Of a stretch of DNA of 64,000 bases, positions 48,335 to 60,318 are shown one piece after another. Each line of letters begins with the position of its first letter. Positions within the stretch are counted from its first letter, which is position 1. The translations under genes and the position numbers were made by a program. Location of the stretch: the IMG/VR virus record IMGVR_UViG_3300023231_000362. One strand, given 5' to 3'. The stretch is from an uncultured virus (IMG/VR IMGVR_UViG_3300023231_000362). Taxonomy: Duplodnaviria; Heunggongvirae; Uroviricota; Caudoviricetes. The notes under the pieces are model-generated. The model was not told the DNA's origin, did not search any database, and saw nothing but the letters and a program-made list of their open reading frames with translations.

Positions 48335-49693
48335 TTGCCAGCGAAACCCGCTGAACTATTAACTCCCAGCCCTGTCCCTACACAGAATGTAAGTAATGGA
48401 GAATATCCTCCATTAGCTCAGACGCCACAACAGCGCCTAGTACAGAGTAAGATAAACGCAGACAGTACGTTTGACGAATCTTTTAACGCTATGAACACAG
48501 TTTATGGCCCGGGCTTCGTATACTCTAATTATGGTGACTTAAGTAAACAGTTTGTCTTTGATGTGCAGACACACTTACTTAAGGATGGGTATAAAAACCC
48601 ACAGCAACTTGCACACAGGCAGTATGCACACAACTATCTAAATTCAGACGTGGAGCGTTACCCCACGTTTGATGCACAGAAGTTTGATAATTACATTAAA
48701 GAAATATACCTAGACAGTGATACCAAACTGGCACTAATAAGTGGAACACCTGGCGATTCTGCTGATGAGGACCTGATAGATAATGATAGTATTAAGTGGG
48801 CAAGTACAGTTATTAACAATGTCTGTGGTAGTAAGCGAAGTTTTAGTCACAGCATAATACAACCTAAAGTACCTGGTTACCTAGATGAAGTGGACTACGC
48901 TATAGAAGTCCTACAGCCAGATAGCTGGAAGTGTTATACAATAGGAACCTTTGCATACCCGACTCGACGGAATAAACAGTTTAGATTAGATGATGAAAAA
49001 CTGGTCTATCCCTGGTTCGAACGAGCAGAGCGAGCAGGTATTAAAAACATCTGTGTACACAAAGGACTATTACCACCAGATTATCGAGAGTCCTGGCGAG
49101 ACTTGTGGGAATACAGTACTGTTCAAGACCTCGCAAAAGCCGCTCGAGACTGGCCGAACTTAAACTTTATAATCTATCACAGTGCATTGCGTATAAGTCA
49201 CGAAAACCCAGAGGATATCCTCAAGAACTTCGTTAAAACTGGTCGGATTGAATGGACAACCGACTTGTGTGATATAGTACACAAGTATGGACTTAAAAAT
49301 GTTTATGCAGAACTAGGTACAAGTTTTGGTAGCATGGTTGTGCTTAATCCCCTGGTAGCAAGTGCATGGTTAGGGCAGATGCTAAACATGATGGGTGAGG
49401 ATAGAATATTATGGGGTACTGACTCTGTGTGGTATGGATCACCACAGTGGCAGATAGAAGCACTACGTAGACTGGAAGTACCTGATCACATTATGCATCG
49501 TATGGGCTGGGACAAAAACTTAGGAGAACCCGACGGCACTGTAAAGCAAAAAATATTTGGACTTAACGCCGCTAGACTGTATAATGTAGATGTTGCAAGT
49601 GCAATAAATGATATAGATTCTAGTAAAATAGAAAAAATGCGTTTGGGGCATAGCGAACCTAGAAATAATAGATACTATGGTTATATAGCATAA
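48335..49693 (+). CDS. Amidohydrolase-family metallo-hydrolase (Amidohydro_2-like)
   Basis: DVQTH, CVHKG, IIYHS, NVYAELG, LWGTDS and IFGLNAARLY motifs. Confidence 0.85.
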   Translation: MPAKPAELLTPSPVPTQNVSNGEYPPLAQTPQQRLVQSKINADSTFDESFNAMNTVYGPGFVYSNYGDLSKQFVFDVQTHLLKDGYKNPQQLAHRQYAHNYLNSDVERYPTFDAQKFDNYIKEIYLDSDTKLALISGTPGDSADEDLIDNDSIKWASTVINNVCGSKRSFSHSIIQPKVPGYLDEVDYAIEVLQPDSWKCYTIGTFAYPTRRNKQFRLDDEKLVYPWFERAERAGIKNICVHKGLLPPDYRESWRDLWEYSTVQDLAKAARDWPNLNFIIYHSALRISHENPEDILKNFVKTGRIEWTTDLCDIVHKYGLKNVYAELGTSFGSMVVLNPLVASAWLGQMLNMMGEDRILWGTDSVWYGSPQWQIEALRRLEVPDHIMHRMGWDKNLGEPDGTVKQKIFGLNAARLYNVDVASAINDIDSSKIEKMRLGHSEPRNNRYYGYIA

Positions 49694-49806
49694 GTGATAT
49701 GCTCTAAGAGCATAGAAAATGTTGTATCGCAAAACTAAATACAGGTGCACAGCAATCCTGTGCATTTATAACATTTTCAAACACACTTATAAGGAAAGAC
49801 ACACAA

Positions 49807-49923
49807 ATGATACAGATAGTTATAGAAAAACTCAAAAGGTTTTATAATATATTAATAACAGCGCAAATAAAATCAGCAGAACGTCGAATTAAGGGGTATA
49901 AGTCTTTAGGTTATGTTGCATGA
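49807..49923 (+). CDS. 38-aa basic small protein (not in track)
   Basis: AAGGA SD; TAAATA at 49736; ATGA coupling to the next ORF. Confidence 0.55.
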   Translation: MIQIVIEKLKRFYNILITAQIKSAERRIKGYKSLGYVA

Positions 49924-50063
49924 TGAAACTTATAATTAAACTACTCGACAATCTGTCAGAGTGGGCAAGTCGGCAAGAACGTATGGATTTAGACCAATAT
50001 CTAAGTCAGTCACAGACGATCGGTGAGTTAGAAGATCGTATGCGTAAATGGCAAGTTAAGTAG
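49920..50063 (+). CDS. 47-aa small protein, DUF3563-like (YLSQSQTIGELEDRMR)
   Basis: Recalled YLxxSxxxxxLExRMR motif; followed by a terminator. Confidence 0.5.
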   Translation: MMKLIIKLLDNLSEWASRQERMDLDQYLSQSQTIGELEDRMRKWQVK

Positions 50064-50076
50064 TAACAGCTAACCC

Positions 50077-50102
50077 AGGCGGATAATTTATCCGCCTTTT
50101 TT
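50077..50102 (+). terminator. Intrinsic terminator
   Basis: AGGCGGATAA-T-TTATCCGCCT plus T-run. Confidence 0.85.
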
Positions 50103-50137
50103 ATTGACATCTTGTTAATAAACATATAAACTTAAGC

Positions 50138-50437
50138 ATGGCAAAAATTATCAAAGATTCAAAAAAGCGTCGAAACATTCGACGTTCAATACGCACATTA
50201 ACGGAGGCAGCCTTGGAAACTATATCATATATACGAGATACAATTTTAGGTTATATCTGCGAAGGTATTGGATTTTTGCAGTGCATTGCAGATAAAATTG
50301 CGGGTAAAGAACTTAGTAGCCAATTTTGGACAGGGATTTTTATTATTGTCGCCTTTAGTCTAATGTACTTTGATATGATACTGGCATTTTTTATACTGGG
50401 GTGCAGGATACTTTGGTTACTGGAGAGATCATTGTGA
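50138..50437 (+). CDS. Small membrane protein
   Basis: Hydrophobic C-terminus; TTGACA-17-TAAACT promoter from 50105; start uncertain. Confidence 0.5.
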   Translation: MAKIIKDSKKRRNIRRSIRTLTEAALETISYIRDTILGYICEGIGFLQCIADKIAGKELSSQFWTGIFIIVAFSLMYFDMILAFFILGCRILWLLERSL

Positions 50438-50688
50438 CCGATGAAGCGGAACTTAGAACTAGACCCAAATACCTTAAACACGATGTTGTGTGGAGTATAG
50501 ACAAACTCTACAGAATGGCAACAGATCCATATGCAACAGGATACGAAACTTGGTCATATAAACAAGACTTACTGTTATTAAAGTGGTGGTTAGATGACCT
50601 GGTAGATCAATGTGGGACCTATGCAGACGAAGAAGAATTTAAAAAAGCACATGAAAAACGTAAAATGTGGGATACACTTAAAAAATGA
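50434..50688 (+). CDS. Hypothetical protein
   Basis: ORF coupled to its neighbours. Confidence 0.55.
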   Translation: MTDEAELRTRPKYLKHDVVWSIDKLYRMATDPYATGYETWSYKQDLLLLKWWLDDLVDQCGTYADEEEFKKAHEKRKMWDTLKK

Positions 50689-51017
50689 AGTATCTATGCA
50701 TCGGTAATCCCACAAGTGCTACTGATGACATAACCACACGTCTGGCTGTTACTAAAAAAACCATTAACCACGGGCTTGCGATTAACATAGAGCAGGCGGG
50801 GTTTTATCACATAAGTTTAGCAGACATCAGTATATTGGAAGCAGAAACATTCGTCGAACAGTTTGATGAGTTATACTTCTTAGAACAAGCACGAGAAACA
50901 TACAGCAGTGAATCAGTATACAATAACACAAGAGCATTGCTGTTATATATAAAAAACTGGAATGTAAAACCTTTTAAGATTGTTAAAGAGTCCTGGATAA
51001 AATGTCTGACGTATTAA
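50685..51017 (+). CDS. Hypothetical protein
   Basis: ATGA-coupled ORF. Confidence 0.55.
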   Translation: MKYLCIGNPTSATDDITTRLAVTKKTINHGLAINIEQAGFYHISLADISILEAETFVEQFDELYFLEQARETYSSESVYNNTRALLLYIKNWNVKPFKIVKESWIKCLTY

Positions 51018-52306
51018 AATACAAAGCACGGGTATTGGACACAAAGTCCCAGTCTTTCTGTGGTGCAAAGTGGTACGAGGCTGTGATATTTTTAGGGTCT
51101 GGCAAGACAATGAGTTGCCATCATAATCCTTATCACGAAGTAAGTGACACAGCAGTACTTGAAAACTACAAGGCAATACACAATACTTCTGAGAAGAAAC
51201 AACAACGAGCAGAGATGTTACGTGGCGAACGTCCAGAAGGCTGTAATTACTGCTGGCGTCTTGAGGATAATAACTCCGTTAGTGATCGGGTATATAAAAG
51301 TCAGAAGTTTACTGATGCTGACAATCAGTTAGCATTTGACTCAGACCCCAATGCTGACGTTGACTTACAGTCACTGGAGTTGCACTTTGACAAAGTATGT
51401 CAGATGGCATGTAGTTACTGCCATGCAGGTTACAGTACTACCTGGGCACAGGATATAAAGCAAAATGGTGCATACGAAAATGTAGAGTCTGACAAACAGC
51501 AACACTACAAGTATCAGAGAAAAATAGATCAACTGTTTAAGCCTACCCAGGAAAACTTATATGTAGAAGCATTTTATAAATGGTGGGACGCAGACTTACA
51601 TCGGACACTTAAAGAGTTACGCATACTAGGTGGGGAACCCTTATTGAGTCCACACATATGGCGTTTTATTGAATGGTTTAAAAGCAAAGACACTAAATGT
51701 AGTCTGGAGTTTGTAACTAACCTAGGACCCAAAGTTGATGTGCCCAGGTTCCTTAATGCTGTAGACGGCAAACAGGTTGTGGTAATGACCAGTATGGAAA
51801 CTGTGGGAGAACATGCTGAGTACACCAGAGACGGGGTAGATTACGAGCTTTGGTGTAAAAATGTCGAACTCTGTCTGCAGAGCAAAACGGTGTCACGTAT
51901 GTCAGTGCTGTTTACCGTAAATGCCTTAAGTGTGTTTAATATGTGCGATCTTATGGCAAAGATTATACACTGGAGGTCAGTGTACGGCAAAGACAGGATA
52001 AACATGAGTATTAATATCTTACGTTATCCAGTATTTCAAAACATAACAGTTTTATCTGACACTGCAAGACAACAAGTAGCCACTACTCTGGAACAATGGT
52101 TAGAACTACACGACAACTATATTACTGACTACGAGTATCAACAACTTGAGAGACTCGTAAATTATGTTAGAGTTGTTGACGCACCCGACAATTTACAAGA
52201 TGTACGCAAAGACTTTAAATCGTTCTTTACACAATATGATAAACGCAGAGGAAAAAGTTTTAAGGAAACCTTTCCTGAATTAACAGACTGGTACGGAGAG
52301 ATATAA
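51002..52306 (+). CDS. Radical SAM protein with an N-terminal twitch/SPASM-like domain
   Basis: FCGAKW..SCHH..GCNYCW; CQMACSYC; GGEP. Confidence 0.9.
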   Translation: MSDVLKYKARVLDTKSQSFCGAKWYEAVIFLGSGKTMSCHHNPYHEVSDTAVLENYKAIHNTSEKKQQRAEMLRGERPEGCNYCWRLEDNNSVSDRVYKSQKFTDADNQLAFDSDPNADVDLQSLELHFDKVCQMACSYCHAGYSTTWAQDIKQNGAYENVESDKQQHYKYQRKIDQLFKPTQENLYVEAFYKWWDADLHRTLKELRILGGEPLLSPHIWRFIEWFKSKDTKCSLEFVTNLGPKVDVPRFLNAVDGKQVVVMTSMETVGEHAEYTRDGVDYELWCKNVELCLQSKTVSRMSVLFTVNALSVFNMCDLMAKIIHWRSVYGKDRINMSINILRYPVFQNITVLSDTARQQVATTLEQWLELHDNYITDYEYQQLERLVNYVRVVDAPDNLQDVRKDFKSFFTQYDKRRGKSFKETFPELTDWYGEI

Positions 52307-52584
52307 TGGAAGAGAAAATACGAGAAGACTTGTTCACAGACATTAGTAGATATACATTGCAGGGCATAGAACCTACAGGTTTAGTCAGAGCAATAATTTG
52401 CAACGACTTATATCAACTAGTACTGCAAGCACAAGGTACAGATGCCTGGGCAGAAACAAAAAAAATAGTTAAGTGGTTGCAAAAAAACGGGGTAGTTGAT
52501 GGTCTACGTTGTTGGGGCAGTCATTCAATAATGATTAGGTACTTGGACTTAACAAATGCACCGCTTACAGGTAACACGAAATAA
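52306..52584 (+). CDS. Hypothetical protein
   Basis: ORF with GGAG SD. Confidence 0.55.
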   Translation: MEEKIREDLFTDISRYTLQGIEPTGLVRAIICNDLYQLVLQAQGTDAWAETKKIVKWLQKNGVVDGLRCWGSHSIMIRYLDLTNAPLTGNTK

Positions 52585-52606
52585 TAATACTAAGTGATAT
52601 AGAGAA

Positions 52607-53326
52607 CTAGCCTTCTTCGGAGGGCTTTTTCACGGTTGCAAGTCCTACAGTTTCCAACGCCTCTATCCAGGCCCAACCTATATCAAACTCCATAGCGGTA
52701 CGTTCAAACTTAGCACTTGCTGGAAACTTATGGTGGTTATTGTGCAATTCTTCACCACCTATCAGTATCCCCCAAGGTATAATGTTATGACTGTTTTCTT
52801 TGGTGTTGTAGTTTCTATAACCTACGTAGTGAGCAACTCCATTAATTACTCCCGCCGCCCAGAAAGGTATCCATAACATCTGAATACCCCATATTAATAT
52901 GCCCCACCAACTGAAGATGGCAACATTTGTCAGTAACAGTAATAGTATCCCTGAGTTCTTAAACCTGGTATATACGTTACGTTCTACCCAGTCATCTGGC
53001 GTACCCACACCAAACTGTTCAACCATCCGTTGGTCGTTGGCGGCATCTGTATATAACAGAGCTCCTCCAAACAACACTCTTTTAATACCATAGACCACAG
53101 GGCTGTGTGGATCGCCCTCTTTATCACTAAATGCGTGATGTTTACGGTGTACCGCTACCCATTCTTTGGTGACCATACTGGTAGTTAGCCAGAGCCAAAA
53201 TCGCATAAAGTGGGTTATGTATCTATGAAATTCAACGGCTTTATGGGCTTGGCAACGATGCAAGAACAGAGTTACGCATAGGATTGTTATATGAGTTGCT
53301 ACTAATGTATAGATTATCTCAGTCAT
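52607..53326 (-). CDS. Membrane fatty-acid desaturase (DesA/delta-9-like)
   Basis: His boxes HRCQAH, HRKHH and HNNHH; GEEL; EFDIGW. Confidence 0.92.
   Translation of the reverse strand: MTEIIYTLVATHITILCVTLFLHRCQAHKAVEFHRYITHFMRFWLWLTTSMVTKEWVAVHRKHHAFSDKEGDPHSPVVYGIKRVLFGGALLYTDAANDQRMVEQFGVGTPDDWVERNVYTRFKNSGILLLLLTNVAIFSWWGILIWGIQMLWIPFWAAGVINGVAHYVGYRNYNTKENSHNIIPWGILIGGEELHNNHHKFPASAKFERTAMEFDIGWAWIEALETVGLATVKKPSEEG
52609..52630 (+). terminator. UUCG-tetraloop intrinsic terminator overlapping the 3' end of the desaturase gene
   Basis: AGCCTTC-TTCG-GAGGGCT-TTTT. Confidence 0.75.
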
Positions 53327-53344
53327 GTTGTACTTATCGTTGTA

Positions 53345-53402
53345 AATCAATAACTTACGTGGTTATATTTTGGTTGACGTTTGGTCCGAGTGAACCTATA
53401 AT
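53345..53402 (+). promoter_or_regulatory. IHF-like box (AATCAATAACTTA) plus sigma70 promoter TTGACG-17-TATAAT
   Basis: Consensus matches. Confidence 0.78.
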
Positions 53403-53438
53403 ATAGTTATACTGTTAATAAAGAAGAGGGGAAACAAG

Positions 53439-53669
53439 ATGTCACAGACACTAACACAATTTGTAAATTACTGCAACGACTTTTACGGTATGGGTGGCTT
53501 ATACGACATGGCCTTTACTAAAAAAGAAATAGCCCATGCAGTAGACATTTACTTTAGTCGCATGTCAGACCAAGTAAATTGGGGCGGTGGTGATACTGTA
53601 GACCGTGAACGTGTTTACGAGATTATGCGTGAAATTTATACTTTTGAATACAAAGTGGAGGTAGCGTAA
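53439..53669 (+). CDS. Small early hypothetical protein
   Basis: GAGGGG SD after a sigma70 promoter. Confidence 0.7.
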   Translation: MSQTLTQFVNYCNDFYGMGGLYDMAFTKKEIAHAVDIYFSRMSDQVNWGGGDTVDRERVYEIMREIYTFEYKVEVA

Positions 53670-53848
53670 TGAAAAAATCAATTACTATGGAAGAACTTAC
53701 GATGGCACAGGCCACGTACAAAAAACTACAATTTCTTCAAGAAGAGAATGCTGAACGTATTGAAAAACTAGAGCAACTCTTTGAGGATTTAGACTTAGGT
53801 GTGGTTGCAATTAGAATACCAGAATCAGATAGACTATCTAACGGTTGA
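53669..53848 (+). CDS. 59-aa early coiled-coil protein (not in track; MKKSITMEELTMAQ...)
   Basis: GGAGG SD and TAATG overlap. Confidence 0.6.
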   Translation: MKKSITMEELTMAQATYKKLQFLQEENAERIEKLEQLFEDLDLGVVAIRIPESDRLSNG

Positions 53849-53873
53849 CATCTAAATCGAGTGACGCTATACT
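53845..53873 (+). promoter_or_regulatory. Sigma70-type promoter
   Basis: TTGACA-17 bp-TATACT. Confidence 0.8.
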
Positions 53874-53909
53874 ATTAAAACTAGGGAAACAGACAGGGGG
53901 AAGTAATAC

Positions 53910-54725
53910 ATGACGACATTGCTTAAAGTTGACAGGGTAGAAAAAGATTTATCAAAAGAAACGGACGCTCAGATCATGGAGCGCATTGGAGAGCGTTTTA
54001 ACATCCTAACTGAAATGACCAAAGCGGTTATTACCAATGACGTTAGGGCAATGATTGTTTCCGGACCTCCAGGAGTAGGCAAGAGTTATGGCGTAGAGTC
54101 ACTGCTCGAAAAAGAAAATCTGTTTGATCAGATACAAAATCGTAAACCCAAATATGAACTTGTAAAAGGCACAGCATCAGCACTAGGCTTGTATTGCACA
54201 TTGTTCGAACATTCGGATCGAGGACACGTTATTGTATTTGACGATTGTGACTCAATCTTAATGGACGAGCTCAGTCTAAACATCCTTAAAGGTGCATTAG
54301 ACTCTGGCAAATCTAGACGTATTAGTTGGAAAGCAGATTCACACAAACTTCGTAACGAAGGTGTGCCTAACTCGTTTACATTTAACGGTAGTGTTATCTT
54401 TATCACTAACCTTAAGTTTGATCGAGTGCGTGGTAAGATCAGACAACACTTAGAGGCGATACAATCACGTTGCCACTACTTGGATCTTACACTTGATACT
54501 GACCGTGAGAAGATGCTACGTATTAAACAGATTGCCAAAACTGGTGAATTATTCGAGCGTTATCACTTTACAAAGGAGCTCGAATCAACTATACTAAGTT
54601 TTATGGATGATAACAAAGATAGTTTACGTGAACTTAGTTTAAGGATGGCAATTAAGATTGCGGATCTTGTTAAAATTAATCCAAATACCTGGCAGAAACT
54701 TGCAAGGTGTACAGTAATGAGGTAA
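53910..54725 (+). CDS. AAA+ ATPase
   Basis: GPPGVGKS Walker A, VFDDCD Walker B, FITN sensor, SRC Arg finger. Confidence 0.88.
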   Translation: MTTLLKVDRVEKDLSKETDAQIMERIGERFNILTEMTKAVITNDVRAMIVSGPPGVGKSYGVESLLEKENLFDQIQNRKPKYELVKGTASALGLYCTLFEHSDRGHVIVFDDCDSILMDELSLNILKGALDSGKSRRISWKADSHKLRNEGVPNSFTFNGSVIFITNLKFDRVRGKIRQHLEAIQSRCHYLDLTLDTDREKMLRIKQIAKTGELFERYHFTKELESTILSFMDDNKDSLRELSLRMAIKIADLVKINPNTWQKLARCTVMR

Positions 54726-54730
54726 TAGCA

Positions 54731-54823
54731 GTTTTCCCATGTTCGCCCATCTCCCTCAAATATGCTCCCTTGGGCGAACATTTTCGAATCCCCCGGCCCC
54801 CTCGCTGGGGGGTTCACCCTTTT
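54731..54823 (+). ncRNA. Candidate structured small RNA: two hairpins with C-rich anti-SD loops
   Basis: Stem 54739-54749/54771-54781 (11 bp perfect) with loop carrying CUCCCU twice; stem 54786-54796/54805-54815 with loop CCCCCUCG; GC-rich patch in an AT-rich genome. Confidence 0.5.
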
Positions 54824-54838
54824 AAAGTATCGGTCGGC

Positions 54839-56023
54839 ATGAAAACATTTAACTATGTAGAAGACTATATTATTGAATTGTATGAAGGCAGTTATAGGTT
54901 TAATGCTAATAGTCAAGACATCGACTATCGTCTAGCCAGTTACGACATTAGAATAGTTCAAAGCATTCACAACCAGGTAACTTTCCAGAGCGTAGCACTG
55001 ACAGATAAACAAGCAGAGCTCTGCGTTAAATTAGTAGAAAAATACACACGCCAATTTAAACGGGCAGGCATTGACAACTTTGCAATGCTAGAGTCAAGTA
55101 CTCGGAAGTTTAAACTTGGCATACGCAAGGTTAATAGGGATTATAAGATCCATATCAAAGACGACCTGATACATGCTACGTTTCCCTATAACCTAAGGCT
55201 TATTTCAGAAATAAGAAAGCGTTCAGAAAAGTCTGGGGGTGTTAGAGCCATTTGGAGTCGAACTGACAAAGTCTGGAAGTTTGGGTTTACAGAACCTAAT
55301 GTAAAGTTTACTATTAGTTTTGGTCAAGATTATGATTTTGATATAGATCCTAAATTGTTAGAGATAGCCGGTAAGCTAGCCAAGCAGGACTGGGAACACT
55401 ATAATATCAAACTTGTGGAACATGATGGCAAGTACACTATACAAAACTGTCCAGTCAGTCTAAGCGAGTACGTTGACAAACACGCAGGCACTGATCTATT
55501 GAGTTTGGTAGACTACAGTGGTATCTGTGCCTACCAGGTTGACAATAACATTGCCAATCAGATTAAACAGGCTCATACTGAAACAGTAAGTGCATGTCTA
55601 TTAGGCAAGCATATCTGGTTAGATCCAAAGAAACATTCGTTTAACGATATTATAAAGTATGCAGAGTTAACCGATAGATTTCCAGTAACTGTATACGACA
55701 CACTAGGAAATTTTGGACCTTTCCTAAATCAAAATATAGAAAAAACAGACAGTAACTTTAAATATCTATATAGTCGCTTTTTAAATTTGTCTGAACGTGT
55801 TGGTCCTATATACCATCATGACACGGTACTACCTGATAACTGGCCGTACAAAAACGCAGATCCTAAAACTGCTAGAATAAAAATTTATTCATCAGCATCA
55901 AAGGATATGTTTATTGACGACATACCTTTATTAGTATGTAGCCAAAATTTTAATTATGGAAGTTTGCGCATACAGATGCTTGCAAAATCTGAAAAAATAG
56001 TGTATCATTGTGTTAAATTATGA
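54839..56023 (+). CDS. Hypothetical protein upstream of the helicase
   Basis: Long ORF; start refined to ATG 54839. Confidence 0.7.
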   Translation: MKTFNYVEDYIIELYEGSYRFNANSQDIDYRLASYDIRIVQSIHNQVTFQSVALTDKQAELCVKLVEKYTRQFKRAGIDNFAMLESSTRKFKLGIRKVNRDYKIHIKDDLIHATFPYNLRLISEIRKRSEKSGGVRAIWSRTDKVWKFGFTEPNVKFTISFGQDYDFDIDPKLLEIAGKLAKQDWEHYNIKLVEHDGKYTIQNCPVSLSEYVDKHAGTDLLSLVDYSGICAYQVDNNIANQIKQAHTETVSACLLGKHIWLDPKKHSFNDIIKYAELTDRFPVTVYDTLGNFGPFLNQNIEKTDSNFKYLYSRFLNLSERVGPIYHHDTVLPDNWPYKNADPKTARIKIYSSASKDMFIDDIPLLVCSQNFNYGSLRIQMLAKSEKIVYHCVKL

Positions 56024-57477
56024 CAACAGCCATACTACATATCAAGGACGAAGTTAATTGCAAGATCGAAGGATTAGATTTAACAACTAGAAAAAACCTA
56101 GTAAACAAATTTAAATTTGAGATCCCCTATGCACGTTACTTACCAGCAGTCAGACTAGGTCGCTGGGATGGTAAGATCAGTTTCTTTCAGCTGAGTGGTA
56201 GCACCTTTGTAAACTTATTGCCAGAGATTATTCCTGAACTGGAATCTGCAGGTTACGATCTAGAACTAAATGACCTGCGTGAATACAATACTAATTTTGA
56301 TTTTGAGGAAGTTACTGAGGACAGTTATGCAAATATATCCTGGCCCAAGAGACATCCTGCAGAAGGTCAACCAATTAAATTACGTGACTATCAGGTTGAC
56401 ACTATCAATAACTTTTTGCGCAACCCGCAATGCTTACAAGAGATAGCAACTGGTGCAGGTAAGACACTAATGACTGCTGTGCTCAGTAGTAAGTGCGAAC
56501 AGTACGGCAGAACAGTAGTTATTGTGCCTAATAAGAGTCTAGTAACACAAACAGAAGAAGACTATGTTAACATGGGCATGGATGTTGGCGTGTTTTACGG
56601 TGATCGCAAGGAGTATACCAAGACGCATACTATATGCACCTGGCAGAGTCTAAACAGTCTGCTAAAGCGAACTAAAAACCAAGAAGCAGATATCGGTATA
56701 GGCGAGTTCTTGGAAGGTGTCGTTGGTGTTATTGTTGATGAAGTACACGGTGCTAAAGCAGACGCACTTAGAACATTACTAACAGGTGTAATGAGTCATG
56801 TACCAATACGTTGGGGGCTAACAGGCACTATACCCAAAGAAGATTTTGAGTTTATGAGTATACGATGTAGTTTAGGTGATGTTATTAATCGTATCAGCGC
56901 AAGCGAGTTACAGGACAAAGGAGTACTGGCTAATTGTAATGTAAATATATTACAGTTAGTTGAACATACAGAATATTCAAATTATCAAAGCGAACAGAAG
57001 TACTTGTTAGATAATACAGAAAGACTGGACTATATTGCAAGTGTAATCGAAAATATAAGACTAAGCGGTAACACACTTATACTAGTAGATAGAATTTCAG
57101 CTGGCACACGACTGTCAGAAAAGATTAAAGACGCAGTGTTTGTGCAAGGGGCAACTAAGTCGGCAGACCGCAAAGAGCAGTATGATGAAGTTGCCACCAC
57201 CACTGATAAAGTTATTGTGGCAACGTATGGCGTTGCTGGTGTTGGCATTAACATTCCCCGTATTTTTAATCTGGTTCTCATTGAGCCTGGTAAAAGTTTT
57301 GTACGGGTTATCCAGTCTATTGGTAGGGGTATTCGTAAAGCCCAAGACAAAGACTTTGTACAGATATGGGACGTAACTTCAACATGTAAATTTAGTAAAA
57401 GACATTTAACAAAACGGAAGCAGTTCTATAAAGATGCTAATTATCCGTTTCAGATAGAGAAGATTACATGGCAATGA
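56020..57477 (+). CDS. uvsW: SF2 DNA helicase (UvsW-like)
   Basis: LRDYQ, ATGAGKT, DEVH, GLTGT and QSIGRGIR motifs. Confidence 0.9.
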   Translation: MTTAILHIKDEVNCKIEGLDLTTRKNLVNKFKFEIPYARYLPAVRLGRWDGKISFFQLSGSTFVNLLPEIIPELESAGYDLELNDLREYNTNFDFEEVTEDSYANISWPKRHPAEGQPIKLRDYQVDTINNFLRNPQCLQEIATGAGKTLMTAVLSSKCEQYGRTVVIVPNKSLVTQTEEDYVNMGMDVGVFYGDRKEYTKTHTICTWQSLNSLLKRTKNQEADIGIGEFLEGVVGVIVDEVHGAKADALRTLLTGVMSHVPIRWGLTGTIPKEDFEFMSIRCSLGDVINRISASELQDKGVLANCNVNILQLVEHTEYSNYQSEQKYLLDNTERLDYIASVIENIRLSGNTLILVDRISAGTRLSEKIKDAVFVQGATKSADRKEQYDEVATTTDKVIVATYGVAGVGINIPRIFNLVLIEPGKSFVRVIQSIGRGIRKAQDKDFVQIWDVTSTCKFSKRHLTKRKQFYKDANYPFQIEKITWQ

Positions 57478-58268
57478 AAAAATTAGCAGTATGTGGGTGT
57501 AGTTTTTCAGCACCCAGTAACGACCCTAAACTCAAAGGAACAAGTTGGGGAGAGCAACTGGCAGATATGTTAGGCTGGGATCTATTGCATTATGCACGTC
57601 AGGGTGTTAGTAATGGCGGCATACGTGTAATGATAGACCAGTGTATTAAAGACAAAGTAGACTTTGCAGTAATAGCGCCAACGTTTCATGACAGAATGGA
57701 GATACCTGCCACAGCGGCTCCTTTTGATTGGAACAAGTCAACAGATGGTTGGAACCCACTAATACAACAGCACTTGCAAGACGTCGATATTAAAAACGGT
57801 TACCAAGAAGACTTGGGTGTACAGAATATTAATTACGGCAGTAACAACTACACACTGATTAGTGAAACAATCTACACACTGGCAGAAAACTTTGATCATC
57901 CTTATCGTAGTCAGAAACTAGATAAAATGACAGCCAGTGCAGTTAAACAGTATATTAACTTCATGTACGACAGCAATTGGAAACTTCAACAAGATCGCTG
58001 GATCATACGTGATGGCATCATGCAGTTACACTATCACAAGATACCTTTCTTACTGGTAGCCTGTAACATATGGACAAGCGACATGGTGAGAGATCACTTT
58101 CCAGATGCAATACCTGATCATTGTTTAACATTAGATTACAAAGATACTCCTGCATACTCAACCAATGAGTGGCCTTTTGAGGGGGAGGACCCAGGCTATC
58201 ACGGTGCAGTAGAAAGCCAAACTTACCTAGCAAAAAGATACAAGGAAATTATTGAATGTCATTCATAA
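57474..58268 (+). CDS. SGNH-hydrolase-like phage protein
   Basis: GCSFS, G.SNGGI and distal DPGYH motifs. Confidence 0.5.
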   Translation: MKKLAVCGCSFSAPSNDPKLKGTSWGEQLADMLGWDLLHYARQGVSNGGIRVMIDQCIKDKVDFAVIAPTFHDRMEIPATAAPFDWNKSTDGWNPLIQQHLQDVDIKNGYQEDLGVQNINYGSNNYTLISETIYTLAENFDHPYRSQKLDKMTASAVKQYINFMYDSNWKLQQDRWIIRDGIMQLHYHKIPFLLVACNIWTSDMVRDHFPDAIPDHCLTLDYKDTPAYSTNEWPFEGEDPGYHGAVESQTYLAKRYKEIIECHS

Positions 58269-59197
58269 ATCACAAAGAAGAATCATCAGACATTAGTTGG
58301 TTTGAGGATGATGGCACAAATATCGGCATGCTTAATGACAATGGTCGTAATAGATTCTACGACCAGGCATTAAAAAGCATTTGCCAGAATAAAACGGTTG
58401 TTGACATTGGTGCAGGCACGGGATACTTAACAGCATTAGCAATCAAGCACGGCGCAAAACATGTCACAGCAGTAGAAGCCAGTAGTAAACGTTGTGCATT
58501 CCTTAAAAACATGATAGAGAAACTGGGGTACCAAGACCGAGTTACCATTGTAAACAAAAATTATTTTGACACAGACTTACACAGCGACATAGTCGTAAGT
58601 GAAACAATAGGTGCGCATATCTATAATGAAAACTGGTTGCGACTTGCTGACCATGCAAGAATTCGTTGTCAATATATGATACCAGAGAAGTTTTCAATTA
58701 ACATTGACTTGTACGAAAATCATCCTATCTGGACTACATGTATGCAGGAAAGCATGGCATTTAACTACAATGAGAACAATCATCCTGAGTTTGCAGATGT
58801 TCTGAATAAAGAGATGCAATTAGAAGACCGTGGAGAACAGGCAAATACCATACCTAATCTATTTTCACACCTACACAACTTTGAGGACATAAGATTAAAC
58901 AAGATCTGGCAGAGTGCCCCAATAGTTATAGACCACATGGAGTCAATGGTTGTTCCTGAAATAATTATACCTAGACATGTATTTTCTGCGTTAGGTCAAA
59001 AACTACAAAGGCTAGGTCCCAATGATTGGGTATTTTTAAATATAAACTGGCATGCAACATTCCAAACAACAAGTATGTGGGTGTCAGATACTATTTGGCA
59101 AAATGTGTGTAAGTGTATAGCAATACCTAAATCTGATTTACGTATTTATTTTAGCGAACAAAAAAACAAATGGATGTTTCAAAAATTACAGGATTAG
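58256..59197 (+). CDS. PRMT/PrmA-like SAM methyltransferase
   Basis: MLND..RN..Y, VVDIGAGTGYL, AVE and DIVVSET motifs. Confidence 0.8.
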   Translation: MSFINHKEESSDISWFEDDGTNIGMLNDNGRNRFYDQALKSICQNKTVVDIGAGTGYLTALAIKHGAKHVTAVEASSKRCAFLKNMIEKLGYQDRVTIVNKNYFDTDLHSDIVVSETIGAHIYNENWLRLADHARIRCQYMIPEKFSINIDLYENHPIWTTCMQESMAFNYNENNHPEFADVLNKEMQLEDRGEQANTIPNLFSHLHNFEDIRLNKIWQSAPIVIDHMESMVVPEIIIPRHVFSALGQKLQRLGPNDWVFLNINWHATFQTTSMWVSDTIWQNVCKCIAIPKSDLRIYFSEQKNKWMFQKLQD

Positions 59198-59775
59198 TTA
59201 TAGTAGCACACCCAGATGACTGTGCTATACTTGCTGGAGGATTTATACAACGATATAAATCCAAGATCAACTTTGATATATGCTATCTAACATATCGACA
59301 CCAGGACAGCAGAGCTCGGGAACTTGCCAAATTTTGGTTAGCAAGAAATATCGATACACAGTTTTTAGGCTATGTAGATGACTACCGTGACATGGAACAC
59401 GGTATAAGTTTTGATACTGCACAGGCAGAATTAGATATAATAAGAGTAGTTAAGAAGACACAGGCAGAATTAGATATAATAAGAAAGAAGAACTATGACC
59501 TAGTAGTTACGCATGCCAAGGACGGAGACTATGGACACATACACCACAAGTTTGTACATGAGTGTGTAACAAAGATTGATGTACCCAAGGTTTACTTTGC
59601 TAACACAGAAGTGTATAATAATAAAATAGTGGAAAAGTCATGGTATACTCTTGATGAGTTACCTCTACATAGTGCTGTTATAAAAGACGAGTGGAGTTAT
59701 CTAACAGGCGAATACTACTATAACATAACAGAGGACGCACACCAAATAATATATGAGAATACTAACACTCAATGA
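59170..59775 (+). CDS. PIG-L/LmbE-family deacetylase
   Basis: AHPDD and TH...GDYGHIHH motifs. Confidence 0.8.
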   Translation: MDVSKITGLVIVAHPDDCAILAGGFIQRYKSKINFDICYLTYRHQDSRARELAKFWLARNIDTQFLGYVDDYRDMEHGISFDTAQAELDIIRVVKKTQAELDIIRKKNYDLVVTHAKDGDYGHIHHKFVHECVTKIDVPKVYFANTEVYNNKIVEKSWYTLDELPLHSAVIKDEWSYLTGEYYYNITEDAHQIIYENTNTQ

Positions 59776-60318
59776 CTGACAACACAAAAACAAGCAGTGA
59801 AGAAGACTTTGACTGGTTCAGTAACAATGGTATTTTTATGCCAATGATCAACGACACTGGTAGGAACATTGCATATAAAAAAGCAATTGAGAAAATAGCG
59901 CCTGGCAGTATCATGTGTGACATAGGCACAGGTACAGGATTGTTAAGTATATTAGCCGCCAAAGCTGGAGCCAAAAAAGTCTACAGTATCGAAATGGACA
60001 AGGGCAGGGCTGAGTTTGCAATAAAAATAATTCAAAAACTTGGTCTTGACGATACTATACAAGTCATTAACAAAAATTTTTACAATTGCGACAGAAATGA
60101 TATCCCAGACGATGTGGATTATTTTGTTTCTGAAACAATTGGATCACAAATATTCGACGAAGAAATAATACAAATAGCCAACAAGTCAAAAGAGTAATGT
60201 AGAACATACCATATGGGGTAGTCCTGCAAAAACAATTTTAGCCAGAGTAAGAAACACAAACGCCGATATAAAAATATGGTACGATCATAAAATAGAAAAC
60301 TGGAGACTGAATTACTAA
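59772..60318 (+). pseudogene. Internally deleted, frameshifted paralog of the 58256 methyltransferase
   Basis: N-half 59772-60197; C-terminal piece NVEHTIWG...IKIWYDHKIENWRLNY* in the +1 frame at 60196-60318. Confidence 0.7.

What the first reader, a model, noticed from the sequence alone, without database searches (positions are those of the whole stretch)
54731..54823. Candidate phage small RNA with anti-Shine-Dalgarno loops complementary to the phage's own early-gene leaders
Seen: directly after the AAA ATPase is a GC-rich intergenic patch: GUUUUCCC, an 11-bp perfect stem whose loop holds CUCCCU twice, and a second 11-bp stem (two G-U pairs) with loop CCCCCUCG, then CCCUUUU. The nearby early genes have unusual G-run leaders (AAGAGGGGAAAC before 53439; AGGGAAAC and CAGGGGGAAG before 53910) that could pair with CCCCUC, CCCCCU and UUUCCC. 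Known: alphaproteobacterial AbcR (CUCCCA, GUUCCC) and cuckoo/CcsR (CCUCCUCCC) sRNAs display such motifs in hairpin loops to block ribosome-binding sites. Inference: a 3'-derived phage sRNA that shuts off early or host SD-led translation.
Basis: partly seen in the sequence, partly recalled or inferred. Interest (0 to 1): 0.75.

Follow-up and report, generated by a model that had tools for sequence, protein, structure and literature searches.

The report
Phage mRNA tail masks own start
Right after a phage ATPase gene sits a conserved RNA hairpin whose loop is the reverse complement of that same gene's ribosome-binding site in many related phages, which suggests that the message, or a small RNA cut from its tail, switches off its own translation.

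Summary
Window 54739-54781 is an 11-bp hairpin (HP1) whose 21-nt loop carries CUCCCU twice. Window 54786-54815 is a 12-bp GC-rich hairpin (HP2, loop CCCCUC) followed by ACCCUUUU. No Rfam family matches.

The main result is comparative. I fetched about 170 related phage loci, which gave 140 distinct sequences. The same AAA-ATPase gene (T4 nrdC.10-like, phrog_1250) is usually followed by a hairpin whose stems differ and co-vary, then a terminator. The hairpin loop ends in an anti-Shine-Dalgarno motif, mostly UCUAGCUCCU.

That loop is the reverse complement of the ATPase gene's own leader from the Shine-Dalgarno to the AUG (AGGAGCUAGA-AUG), and the two co-vary across 16 sequence classes. Own-leader duplexes average -15.8 kcal/mol against -12.5 for permuted pairings (0 of 20,000 permutations). 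The gene usually has its own sigma-70-like promoter (46 of 54 loci) and terminator (58 of 63).

In the window itself the match is weaker. The duplex is bipartite at -16.2 kcal/mol, and the ATPase leader ranks 4th of 321 leaders.

Most likely this is an icaR-like 3'UTR anti-RBS element, or an OppZ-like 3'-end sRNA, that represses its own mRNA. Cis versus trans action, and expression, are untested. In three relatives a second gene's leader also matches the loop.

The parts
53845..53873 (+). Sigma-70-like promoter (TTGACA-17-TATACT) of the ATPase transcription unit.
   Evidence: scores it 11 of 12. A promoter-like site lies within 110 nt upstream of the ATPase start in 46 of 54 related loci, against 1 of 55 control windows inside the CDS.
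53880..53909 (+). Short 5' leader of the ATPase mRNA with two G-runs: UAGGGAAAC at 53883-53891, and the SD-region run AGGGGGA at 53895-53901.
   Evidence: Sequence. Predicted pairing with the HP1 loop is -16.2 kcal/mol and with the HP2 loop -12.6 kcal/mol. The leader ranks 4th (HP1) and 6th (HP2) of 321 crude gene leaders in the genome.
53910..54725 (+). AAA-type ATPase gene, 271 aa, phrog_1250, T4 nrdC.10-like; function unknown.
   Evidence: The closest isolate is Pseudomonas phage PA5oct at 45.7% identity. No solved relative by sequence.
54731..54738 (+). Single-stranded GUUUUCCC between the stop codon and HP1.
   Evidence: It could pair with leader G-runs at -9.2 kcal/mol with the ATPase leader and -12.3 with the 53439 leader. 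There is no comparative support.
54739..54781 (+). HP1: an 11-bp stem presenting a 21-nt loop with two anti-SD motifs (CUCCCU at 54751-54756 and 54765-54770).
   Evidence: Fold. Relatives carry a hairpin in the same position with different stems. In the covariance-model alignment 98.9% of cells pair, 7 of 8 pairs change on both sides, and 0 of 500 shuffles reach the observed score. The loop is complementary to the gene's own leader.
54786..54823 (+). HP2: a 12-bp GC-rich stem, loop CCCCUC, then ACCCUUUU. It is the likely intrinsic terminator of the unit, and in this lineage it carries a second anti-SD loop.
   Evidence: Fold. The window's 4-U tract was not called by the terminator scan. The closest relatives have 6-7 U. 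A terminator-like hairpin follows HP1 in 58 of 63 loci. The loop reads CCCCCU here against leader AGGGGG, and CUCCCU in L004/L005 against leader AGGGAG, which is one compensatory change.
54839..56023 (+). Downstream gene (394 aa, no family match). It is not part of the element; the downstream neighbour differs among relatives.

Best explanation
The finding is the 3' untranslated tail of a monocistronic early phage mRNA. The unit reads: sigma-70-like promoter, a leader of about 30 nt, the AAA-ATPase gene, HP1, then the HP2 terminator. HP1 displays anti-Shine-Dalgarno sequence in a large open loop. That loop base-pairs with the ribosome-binding site (SD to AUG) of the same ATPase message. The pairing happens either within one molecule (5'UTR-3'UTR closure, as in S. 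aureus icaR) or through the stable 3'-end fragment HP1+HP2 acting on new copies (as OppZ/CarZ do in Vibrio). Pairing covers the SD, so 30S subunits cannot bind. Translation is shut off, and the duplex is probably a substrate for a double-strand RNase. Each message would then give a limited burst of ATPase. Shown here: the structure, its conservation, stem covariation, and loop-leader complementarity and covariation. Inferred: that the two ends are on one transcript, that pairing occurs in vivo, that its effect is repression, and whether it acts in cis or in trans.
For: (1) Structure. The + strand folds with z = -2.82 and 0 of 200 shuffles as good.

(2) Conservation. Of 140 distinct downstream sequences from about 170 related loci, 63 pass a strict rule: a perfect stem of at least 6 bp enclosing CUCC at the 3' side of the loop, with a T-run within 90 nt. 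Covariance model R1, built from 18 canonical hairpins, finds 37 matches in 100 sources and 11 in 40. All lie on the gene strand except one weak hit. On its alignment 98.9% of cells pair, 7 of 8 pairs change on both sides, and 0 of 500 shuffles reach the observed score.

(3) Target.
- The single best duplex site for the loop, anywhere in the roughly 2.2 kb upstream, abuts an in-frame ATPase start codon in 39 of 63 loci.
- Examples: leader AGGAGCUAGAC-AUG with loop GUCUAGCUCCU; UAGGGAGUAAU with AUUACUCCCUA; AGGAGCUAAAA with UUUUAGCUCCU; UAGGAGUUCA with UGAACUCCUA; AGGAGCGAA with UUCGCUCCU.
- An exact reverse complement of the leader (-20..+3) of at least 8 nt lies in the 250 nt after the stop in 55 of 126 loci. 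The controls give 20 of 378 CDS windows and 7 of 126 same-sense comparisons. At 10 nt or more the counts are 18 of 126, 1 of 378 and 0 of 126.

(4) Covariation.
- Own-leader duplexes average -15.78 kcal/mol against -12.53 +/- 0.35 for permuted pairings, with 0 of 20,000 permutations as low (46 distinct pairs).
- With one representative for each of 16 loop classes the values are -15.24 against -11.20, and 0 of 2,000 permutations reach this in any of 200 resamplings.
- A column-wise test on a MAFFT alignment of 38 whole transcripts gives 73.2% paired against 68.6 +/- 1.2 when shuffled (0 of 500) and 33-50% in slid registers.

(5) One transcription unit. A promoter-like site precedes the start in 46 of 54 loci, against 1 of 55 controls, with the -10 element 29-68 nt before the AUG. 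A terminator-like hairpin follows HP1 in 58 of 63 loci. Where a small ORF is inserted after the ATPase, the element moves with the terminator.

(6) The window itself. Both loop motifs pair with both leader G-runs (54752-54757 with 53896-53901; 54763-54770 with 53883-53891) at -16.2 kcal/mol. The leader ranks 4th of 321. The nearest relatives L004/L005 pair 8+4 bp at about -20 kcal/mol. HP2 loop and leader show one compensatory change between the window and L004.

(7) Precedent. The icaR 3'UTR motif UCCCCUG pairs with its own SD, blocks initiation and gives an RNase III substrate (PMC3868564, abstract). Anti-SD-like 8-mers hundreds of nt downstream pair with the RBS and repress (PMC12697547, abstract). 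OppZ and CarZ are 3'UTR sRNAs that pair with their own transcripts (PMC7398697, abstract).
Against: - No expression data. Two metatranscriptome runs gave only contigs of relatives over the CDS and nothing over the element.
- In the window's own genome the signal is modest. The longest exact leader complement in the 3' region is 6 nt. Many genome windows pair with the loop as well or better by chance. The leader versus its own 3' region ranks 14th of 564 candidate starts. The inference for this window therefore leans on relatives.
- R1 does not detect the window's hairpin, so homology with the canonical class rests on position, architecture and intermediate double-CUCCC forms (L008-L012, L110).
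- The test for G-U bias cannot tell + strand RNA pairing from plain DNA-level complementarity: -15.78 against -15.82 kcal/mol, 24 better and 21 worse.
- All leaders share GGAG and all loops share CUCC, so part of the complementarity is generic; permuted pairs still reach -12.5 kcal/mol.
- Start codons were called by my own rule (first in-frame start preceded by GGAG), and 2 loci were visibly mis-called (L114, L117).
- About half of the distinct loci did not pass the strict hairpin rule. Some carry inserted ORFs or variants, and some may lack the element.
- Pseudomonas phage PA5oct (45.7% identity) has no such element.
- The sign of regulation (repression) is inferred only from the SD being covered.
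Confidence: 0.6

Rival explanations
1. A trans-acting 3'-end sRNA whose main job lies elsewhere. HP1+HP2 would be released or separately transcribed and would regulate other phage (or host) mRNAs, and its own leader would be just one, possibly minor, target.
For: In three relatives a 157-160-aa gene 45-70 kb away has a leader complementary to the HP1 loop. The match is 17 nt in G001, 16 nt in G002 (both include 5 nt of the 3' stem) and 10 nt at the SD in G004. The architecture (seed in a loop, then a terminator with a U-tail) is that of a typical sRNA. The window lineage has an internal promoter-like site 130 nt before the stop (54567-54595). In the window, leaders of genes at genome positions 62218 and 169151 pair with the HP2 loop at -20.2 and -16.4 kcal/mol.
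Against: The own-leader match is the feature that is conserved and co-varies across 16 classes. The second target was found in only 3 genomes. No homologue was found in the window's genome or in 9 other records, though most of those are incomplete. Other GGAGCUAGA hits lie in coding sequence for Glu-Glu-Leu-Glu/Asp. The internal promoter-like site is not family-wide: 16 of 138 loci have any such site in the last 250 nt. No evidence points to host targets.
Confidence: 0.17
2. A stabilising 5'-3' closure. The same pairing would protect the message rather than silence it, for example from 5'-end-dependent decay or from a nuclease that cuts at GGAG in SD regions, as the 14-nt 5'/3'UTR interaction protects B. 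subtilis hbs mRNA from RNase Y.
For: The pairing evidence is the same as for the best explanation. The hbs precedent comes from passages of the review PMC7821165. T4 RegB cutting early mRNAs at GGAG is recalled and comes from no call.
Against: The duplex covers the SD and runs up to the AUG, which should exclude 30S binding. No RegB-like gene was looked for or found here. In the icaR case the same geometry represses.
Confidence: 0.1
3. A DNA-level inverted repeat. The 10-nt leader sequence and its inverted copy after the gene would be paired protein-binding or recombination sites that bracket a mobile gene cassette, not RNA partners.
For: Inverted repeats recognised by one protein would also co-vary. 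The G-U test does not favour RNA. Neighbouring genes differ among relatives.
Against: The 3' copy is always presented in the loop of a hairpin whose stem co-varies. The 5' copy is exactly the SD-to-AUG of a transcribed leader downstream of a promoter. Variants with a 1-2-nt bulge keep two helices, which RNA duplexes tolerate better than protein sites do. The window's two A-to-G leader differences from L004 give G-U with unchanged loop U's. The promoter and terminator lie outside the repeats yet are conserved with them. No recombinase or transposase is nearby.
Confidence: 0.05
4. Only a terminator or processing hairpin pair. HP1 and HP2 would merely end or stabilise the transcript, and the C-rich loops would be incidental.
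For: HP2 followed by a U-tract looks like a terminator. Tandem hairpins at 3' ends are common. In the window alone the leader match is not statistically outstanding.
Against: This does not explain a loop sequence conserved while stems change, nor its complementarity and covariation with the gene's own leader.
Confidence: 0.05

Closest known systems
icaR mRNA 5'UTR-3'UTR interaction, Staphylococcus aureus (Ruiz de los Mozos et al. 2013, PMC3868564; abstract read, plus review passages in PMC7821165)
   Same: A C-rich anti-SD motif in the 3'UTR (UCCCCUG there; CUCCCU, CCCCUC or GCUCCU here) is complementary to the Shine-Dalgarno region of the same mRNA. The predicted outcome is blocked initiation and a double-stranded RNase substrate.
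   Different: icaR has a 3'UTR of about 390 nt, and the motif is not conserved even in S. epidermidis (PMC7821165 passages). Here the 3'UTR is about 100 nt and the motif sits in a hairpin loop 0-30 nt after the stop and just before the terminator. The pairing extends through the spacer to the AUG. It is conserved with covariation across a wide clade of uncultured phages. Nothing has been tested at the bench.
OppZ and CarZ, autoregulatory 3'UTR-derived sRNAs of Vibrio cholerae (Hoyos et al. 2020, PMC7398697; abstract read)
   Same: An RNA from the 3' end of an mRNA, sharing its terminator, is complementary to a translation start region in its own transcript. This would give post-transcriptional negative feedback.
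   Different: OppZ and CarZ are shown to be RNase E-processed, Hfq-associated sRNAs of operons. Here processing, Hfq dependence and the existence of a discrete sRNA are all unknown. The unit is monocistronic and belongs to a phage.
C-rich-loop sRNAs that mask SD sequences: S. aureus RNAIII and Rsa RNAs (UCCC loops), and alphaproteobacterial AbcR and CcsR/cuckoo.
   Same: Anti-SD sequence is displayed in hairpin loops to pair with G-rich ribosome-binding sites.
   Different: There is no sequence or structure homology; Rfam's covariance models give no match. Those are stand-alone host sRNAs with many targets. This element is tied to the 3' end of one phage gene and matches that gene's own leader.
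Long-range anti-SD-like sequences within mRNAs (Gill et al. 2025 preprint, PMC12697547; abstract read)
   Same: Pyrimidine-rich anti-SD-like sequence far downstream of the RBS pairs with it in the same molecule, inhibits initiation and promotes decay.
   Different: That work shows such sequences are generally depleted from genes. Here one is kept, exposed in a loop, and extended to match the gene-specific spacer, which implies selection for the interaction.

Membership tests
3'UTR anti-RBS element acting on its own mRNA (icaR type) | An anti-SD (C/U-rich) motif located in the 3'UTR. | tested here: met
   CUCCCU occurs twice in the HP1 loop and CCCCUC in the HP2 loop, 14-99 nt after the stop. 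Relatives carry GCUCCU-type loops.
3'UTR anti-RBS element acting on its own mRNA (icaR type) | Complementarity to the SD region of the same gene, beyond generic SD/anti-SD. | tested here: met
   In the family: 39 of 63 best sites fall at the gene's own start; a match of at least 8 nt occurs in 55 of 126 loci against 20 of 378 control windows; permutation tests give 0 of 20,000 and, at class level, 0 of 2,000. In the window: a bipartite duplex of -16.2 kcal/mol, rank 4 of 321, but only a 6-nt exact match.
3'UTR anti-RBS element acting on its own mRNA (icaR type) | The leader and the 3' motif lie on one transcript. | tested here: inconclusive
   Only predicted. A promoter-like site is present in 46 of 54 loci and a terminator-like site in 58 of 63. 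The window promoter is at 53845-53873. RNA runs gave no usable cover.
3'UTR anti-RBS element acting on its own mRNA (icaR type) | Pairing blocks initiation-complex formation and/or creates an RNase III substrate. | not testable with these tools
   Needs toeprinting, RNase III assays and reporter fusions.
Autoregulatory 3'UTR-derived sRNA (OppZ/CarZ type) | A discrete stable RNA from the mRNA 3' end that shares the terminator. | not testable with these tools
   The architecture fits: HP1, a median spacer of 6 nt, then the terminator. No transcript-end data were obtained.
Autoregulatory 3'UTR-derived sRNA (OppZ/CarZ type) | Base-pairs with its own parental transcript. | tested here: met
   Met in silico and by covariation only.
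Rfam sRNA families with C-rich loops (AbcR, CcsR/cuckoo and all others) | A match to the family covariance model. | tested here: not met
   No match covers the element at E <= 10 in window 50000-60000 or at E <= 1 in 12 related loci. The nearest is an overlapping sub-threshold match to anti-hemB in L155, at 22.2 bits against a gathering score of 49.5.
Intrinsic (Rho-independent) terminator | A GC-rich hairpin immediately followed by a U-tract. | tested here: inconclusive
   HP2 is a strong 12-bp GC-rich stem, but in the window it has only 4 U after a 4-nt ACCC spacer and was not called by the scan. The closest relatives have 6-7 U. 58 of 63 loci have a terminator-like site after HP1. HP1 is not explained by this role.

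The most novel reading that the evidence does not exclude
A clade of uncultured aquatic large and jumbo phages has evolved a self-closing message. A hairpin-presented anti-RBS loop in the 3'UTR pairs with the Shine-Dalgarno-to-AUG stretch of the same ATPase mRNA and has co-evolved with it through at least 16 sequence classes. The same 3' module also works as a phage-encoded sRNA on a second gene's leader. This would be the first 5'UTR-3'UTR interaction in a phage, and the first in any prokaryotic system to be supported by phylogenetic covariation rather than by a single species.
Probability: 0.5. Interest if true: 0.8.

Novelty: new variant of a known kind. Interest (0 to 1): 0.72.

Why it matters
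Bacterial 3'UTR-to-5'UTR pairing is known from very few cases: icaR, hbs and perhaps RNAIII. The review passages I read (PMC7821165) stress that those 3'UTRs are not conserved even between sister species, so each rests on bench work in a single organism.

This element is different. It is kept at the same place after the same gene in more than 60 distinct phage sequences. Its stem changes by compensatory substitutions, and its loop tracks changes in the gene's own ribosome-binding site. That is evolutionary evidence that such self-pairing is selected.

It also gives a natural series of matched leader/loop pairs that could be used directly as compensatory-mutation sets in reporter assays. It would add a simple, protein-free way for virulent phages to cap the output of an early gene. 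If the trans reading holds, it is also one of few sRNAs from lytic phages.

My four literature searches on phage 3'UTR or anti-SD regulation and on nrdC.10 listed no paper whose title or abstract describes it. The library does not hold most subscription journals.

Tried and rejected
- **Rfam.** No family covers the element in the window (E <= 10) or in 12 related loci (E <= 1).
- **DNA similarity to isolated phages.** No match. By protein, the best isolates are PA5oct-like Pseudomonas phages at 45.7%. PA5oct's own intergenic region has only a small unrelated hairpin.
- **Expression.** One run search found two metatranscriptomes with small shares, 0.07 and 0.04. Laying them gave only contigs of relatives over parts of the CDS and nothing over 54624-55000. 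This is no evidence either way.
- **Strand/RNA test by G-U bias.** Inconclusive for the loop-leader duplex (-15.78 against -15.82 kcal/mol) and for HP1 (-12.05 against -11.37, p = 0.16). My hairpin finder also allowed G-U only on the + strand.
- **Genome-wide target scan with the HP1 loop.** Many windows beat the leader by chance, so it is not informative.
- **Other genes of this phage with a 3' region complementary to their own leader.** Only chance-level matches.
- **Second target gene in the window's genome.** No homologue. None in 9 further records either, most of them incomplete.
- **A family-wide internal promoter for a separate sRNA.** Not found; 16 of 138 loci have any such site.
- **ATPase function.** No PDB relative by sequence. 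Only sub-threshold NCBIfam and Pfam AAA hits.
- **Earlier notes of this scan.** None for this genome.
- **The count of structure pairs on the 1603-column transcript alignment.** My structure string had the wrong length, so I computed the same measures in a script.
- **Ungapped loop-leader extension counts.** These undercount because many leaders carry a 1-2-nt bulge, so I used duplex energies instead.
Full report
**1. What is at the coordinates**

The window is part of a 289,070-bp IMG/VR phage record, at record positions 166947-230946. Region 54726-54838 is the gap between two genes. Upstream is a 271-aa AAA-type ATPase gene at 53910-54725. It matches phrog_1250, has weak AAA Pfam hits, and is annotated nrdC.10 in T4-like phages; its best isolate relatives are PA5oct-like Pseudomonas jumbo phages at 45.7% identity. 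Downstream is a 394-aa ORF with no family match, starting at ATG 54839.

- GUUUUCCC at 54731-54738.
- HP1 at 54739-54781: 11 perfect pairs and a 21-nt loop UCUCCCUCAAAUAUGCUCCCU.
- HP2 at 54786-54815: 12 pairs, two of them G-U, with loop CCCCUC.
- Tail ACCCUUUU at 54816-54823.

The + strand fold has z = -2.82, and 0 of 200 shuffles fold as well. The - strand has z = -0.34. Two CTCCC motifs within 25 nt occur only here on the + strand of the whole genome. No Rfam family matches. The quoted G-run leaders are real, and each follows a strong sigma-70-like promoter: 53374-53402 and 53845-53873, both 11 of 12.

**2. The element is conserved in relatives**

Protein-guided searches returned 13 + 80 + 80 loci that encode relatives of the ATPase. 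These were the best 80 of 441 and of 523 confirmed candidates. After removing duplicates, 140 distinct downstream sequences remained out of 172 usable loci.

Reading them shows a common plan. Within 0-30 nt of the ATPase stop, or after a small inserted ORF, there is a hairpin of 6-15 bp. Its stem sequence differs from lineage to lineage. Its loop ends, next to the 3' arm, in a conserved C-rich motif. The motif is mostly UCUAGCUCCU(R). Variants are UUAGCUCCUUU, UGAACUCCUAA, (U)UCGCUCC, CUUGCUCCG, UUUGUCUGGCUCC and, as in the window, two CUCCC motifs (ACUCCCUA...CCUCCCUAA in L008-L012; GCUCCCUU...ACUCCCUAA in L110). A GC-rich hairpin with a U-tract follows after a median of 6 nt. It often runs directly into the TTGACT of the next promoter.

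- A strict rule (perfect stem of at least 6 bp, CUCC in the last part of the loop, T-run within 90 nt) is met by 63 of 140 sequences. Without the T-run filter 79 of 140 pass, a few of them visibly false.
- A covariance model built from 18 canonical hairpins finds 37 matches in 100 sources and 11 in 40. All are on the gene strand except one weak hit at E 0.19.
- On its alignment (23 distinct rows), 98.9% of cells form pairs, 7 of 8 pairs change on both sides, and 0 of 500 column shuffles reach the observed score. Slid registers pair at 31-43%.
- The model does not detect the window's own hairpin. Its link to the family is its position, its architecture and the double-CUCCC forms in L008-L012 and L110.

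**3. The loop is the reverse complement of the gene's own ribosome-binding site**

Printing the 60 nt before the ATPase start showed leaders such as GAGGAGCUAGACAUG (L007) against loop GAUCUAGCUCCUGG. Other matched pairs are:
- UAGGGAGUAAUUAUG (L011) with AUUACUCCCUA.
- CCAGGAGCUAAAAAUG (L064) with UUUUAGCUCCUUU.
- CUAGGAGUUCAGUAAUG (L060) with UGAACUCCUAA.
- AAGGAGCGAAGCAAAUG (L091) with UAUUCGCUCCUAG.
- ACGGAGCAAAAGCAAUG (L173) with CUUGCUCCGG.

Four tests quantify this.

- **(i) Where the loop pairs best.** I scanned the whole upstream part of each locus (about 2,200 positions) with the loop as probe. The single best duplex abuts an in-frame ATPase start codon in 39 of 63 loci. In 6 of the 24 misses the ORF runs off the locus, and several others lose to the Walker-A codons CCAGGAGUUGG.
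- **(ii) A test that needs no hairpin call.** The reverse complement of the leader (-20..+3) has an exact match of at least 8 nt in the 250 nt after the stop in 55 of 126 loci. Controls give 20 of 378 CDS windows and 7 of 126 same-sense comparisons. At 10 nt or more the counts are 18 of 126, 1 of 378 and 0 of 126. Fourteen loci were dropped beforehand: 10 with an open ORF end, 2 with no SD-led start and 2 with a short flank.
- **(iii) Leaders defined without reference to the loop.** Using the first in-frame start preceded by GGAG, I could define 55 loci and 46 distinct pairs. Eight loci were dropped, including the window, which has GGGGG rather than GGAG. Own-pair duplex energy averages -15.78 kcal/mol against -12.53 +/- 0.35 for permuted pairs, with 0 of 20,000 permutations as low. 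A reversed, non-complemented probe gives -7.70. To reduce the effect of relatedness I collapsed the loci to one random representative for each of 16 loop classes. This gives -15.24 against -11.20, with 0 of 2,000 permutations as low in every one of 200 resamplings.
- **(iv) A column-wise test.** On a MAFFT alignment of 38 long-form transcripts, an ungapped 11-pair long-range helix is 73.2% paired against 68.6 +/- 1.2 when shuffled (0 of 500) and 33-50% in slid registers. The pair next to the core is C-G in 32 rows, U-A in 4 and U-G in 2, with none unpaired. This test is weakened because many leaders carry a 1-2-nt bulge (GGAGC-C/A/G-UAGAC, GGAG-AG-CUAGA, GGGAG-AG-CAAG). The bulge leaves two helices intact.

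**4. One transcription unit**

A sigma-70-like promoter lies within 110 nt upstream of the called start in 46 of 54 loci, against 1 of 55 control windows inside the CDS. The -10 element ends 29-68 nt before the AUG, so the leader is short. A terminator-like hairpin follows HP1 in 58 of 63 loci; that set had been pre-filtered on a T-run. Where a small ORF is inserted after the ATPase (L048, L093, L147), the hairpin sits after that ORF, next to the terminator, and still matches the ATPase leader. The downstream neighbour varies among loci. So the hairpin belongs to the 3' end of the ATPase transcript, not to the next gene.

**5. The window's own version**

- The HP1 loop can pair with both leader G-runs at once: 54752-54757 with 53896-53901 (the SD-region run, 9-14 nt before the AUG) and 54763-54770 with 53883-53891, at -16.2 kcal/mol.
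- The HP2 loop CCCCCU pairs with AGGGGG at 53895-53900, at -12.6 kcal/mol.
- Among 321 crude gene leaders of the genome, the ATPase leader ranks 4th for HP1 and 6th for HP2.
- The weaknesses should be stated plainly. The longest exact complement is only 6 nt. Many arbitrary genome windows pair as well. The leader against its own 3' region ranks 14th of 564 candidate starts.
- The nearest relatives (L004/L005, 91% and 89% protein identity) pair much better: CAAGGGAG-AG-CAAG with CUUGCUCCCUUG, at -19.8 and -20.7 kcal/mol.
- Between L004 and the window, two leader A-to-G changes turn A-U pairs into G-U pairs opposite unchanged loop U's. The HP2 loop changes from CUCCCU to CCCCCU while the leader changes from AGGGAG to AGGGGG. 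That is one compensatory event.
I found no comparative support for it, and a record with an identical element (L002) has a different leader on that gene.

**6. Cis or trans?**

Nothing here decides this. In favour of trans capacity, three relatives' genomes carry a 157-160-aa gene of unknown function, 45-70 kb away, whose leader is complementary to the HP1 loop. The match is 17 nt in G001 and 16 nt in G002; both include 5 nt of the 3' stem and lie 30-45 nt upstream of the AUG, in the 5' arm and loop of a local hairpin. In G004 the match is 10 nt at the SD. Other genomic copies of GGAGCUAGA lie in coding sequence for Glu-Glu-Leu-Glu/Asp and are probably chance. No homologue of that gene was found in the window's genome or in 9 further records, most of them incomplete.

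The window lineage has a promoter-like site at 54567-54595 that could make a separate RNA of about 225 nt, but such sites are not family-wide: 16 of 138 loci. RNA data were uninformative.

**7. Mechanism proposed**

Shown:
- A conserved hairpin whose stem co-varies and which exposes anti-SD sequence.
- Its complementarity to, and covariation with, the SD-to-AUG stretch of the gene it follows.
- Predicted promoter and terminator bracketing both.

Inferred:
- The loop pairs with the RBS, within the molecule once the 3' end is made or as a stable 3' fragment acting on new messages.
- The pairing excludes 30S subunits, ends translation and exposes the duplex to RNase III-type cleavage.

The effect would be a self-limiting burst of ATPase from an early promoter. 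Precedents, from abstracts I read, are the icaR 3'UTR motif UCCCCUG, which pairs with its own SD, blocks initiation and gives an RNase III substrate (PMC3868564); anti-SD-like sequence hundreds of nt downstream, which pairs with the RBS and represses (PMC12697547); and OppZ and CarZ, which pair with their own transcripts (PMC7398697). The opposite sign of regulation, a protective closure like hbs (PMC7821165 passages), cannot be excluded. A DNA-level inverted repeat is unlikely for the reasons given under the rivals, but the G-U test did not settle it.

**8. Known families and novelty**

The element works like icaR or OppZ. It is not homologous to any curated RNA family, and no isolate phage carries it. 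Literature searches turned up the comparators above but no description of this element or of any phage 5'UTR-3'UTR anti-SD interaction. The searched library lacks most subscription journals.

I class it as a new variant of a known kind. What is new is the phage setting, the hairpin-loop presentation next to the terminator, the extension of pairing to the AUG, and above all the breadth of covariation. The review passages say such conservation is absent for the known bacterial examples.

**9. Verdict**

- Observation: confirmed.
- Interpretation: partly supported. It is an anti-SD element aimed at the phage's own leader, but the target is its own gene. sRNA status and host targeting are unproven, and it is not an AbcR or CcsR relative.
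- Confidence in the self-RBS pairing model: 0.6.
- Interest: 0.72.

Noticed in passing
window 54567-54595: A sigma-70-like site (TTTACA-17-TATACT, 10 of 12) lies inside the ATPase CDS, 130 nt before the stop. It is identical in L004, L005 and L096. It could drive a separate RNA of about 225 nt ending at HP2, or it could simply reflect conserved codons.
   Followed up: partly
L181:2240-2310 (G001), L182 minus strand (G002), L184:1480-1500 (G004): The leader of a conserved 157-160-aa gene of unknown function is complementary to the HP1 loop of the same genome, by 17, 16 and 10 nt. In G001 and G002 the site forms the 5' arm and loop of a local CCAGG/CCUGG hairpin upstream of the SD, so pairing there might open the hairpin rather than block the SD.
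   Followed up: partly
many related loci, e.g. L134, L125, L067, L081: The terminator U-tract after HP1 runs straight into TTGACT, the -35 of a TTGACT...TATAAT promoter for the next gene, so terminator and promoter overlap.
   Followed up: no
L002 (contig with identical ATPase and element) versus window 53420-53441: The 76-aa gene (phrog_7799) is 94.7% identical in L002, but its leader is AAGGAGCUAAAGAUG instead of GAAGAGGGGAAACAAGAUG. The leader has been swapped between near-identical phages.
   Followed up: no
window 54707-56023: The reading frame of the downstream gene stays open back through the whole element to a GTG at 54707, so an ORF caller could annotate a 438-aa protein covering HP1 and HP2. 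Relatives support the ATG at 54839 as the start.
   Followed up: partly
window 48335-53350 and 58256-60197: The neighbourhood holds metabolic-looking genes that are unusual for a phage: an amidohydrolase, a radical-SAM protein, a fatty-acid-desaturase-like protein on the opposite strand (52607-53350), two methyltransferases and a PIG-L-type deacetylase.
   Followed up: no
L049 and L051, downstream of the ATPase: These two loci carry two successive hairpins, each with GAACUCC(U/C) in the loop. This is a tandem duplication of the anti-SD hairpin before the terminator.
   Followed up: no
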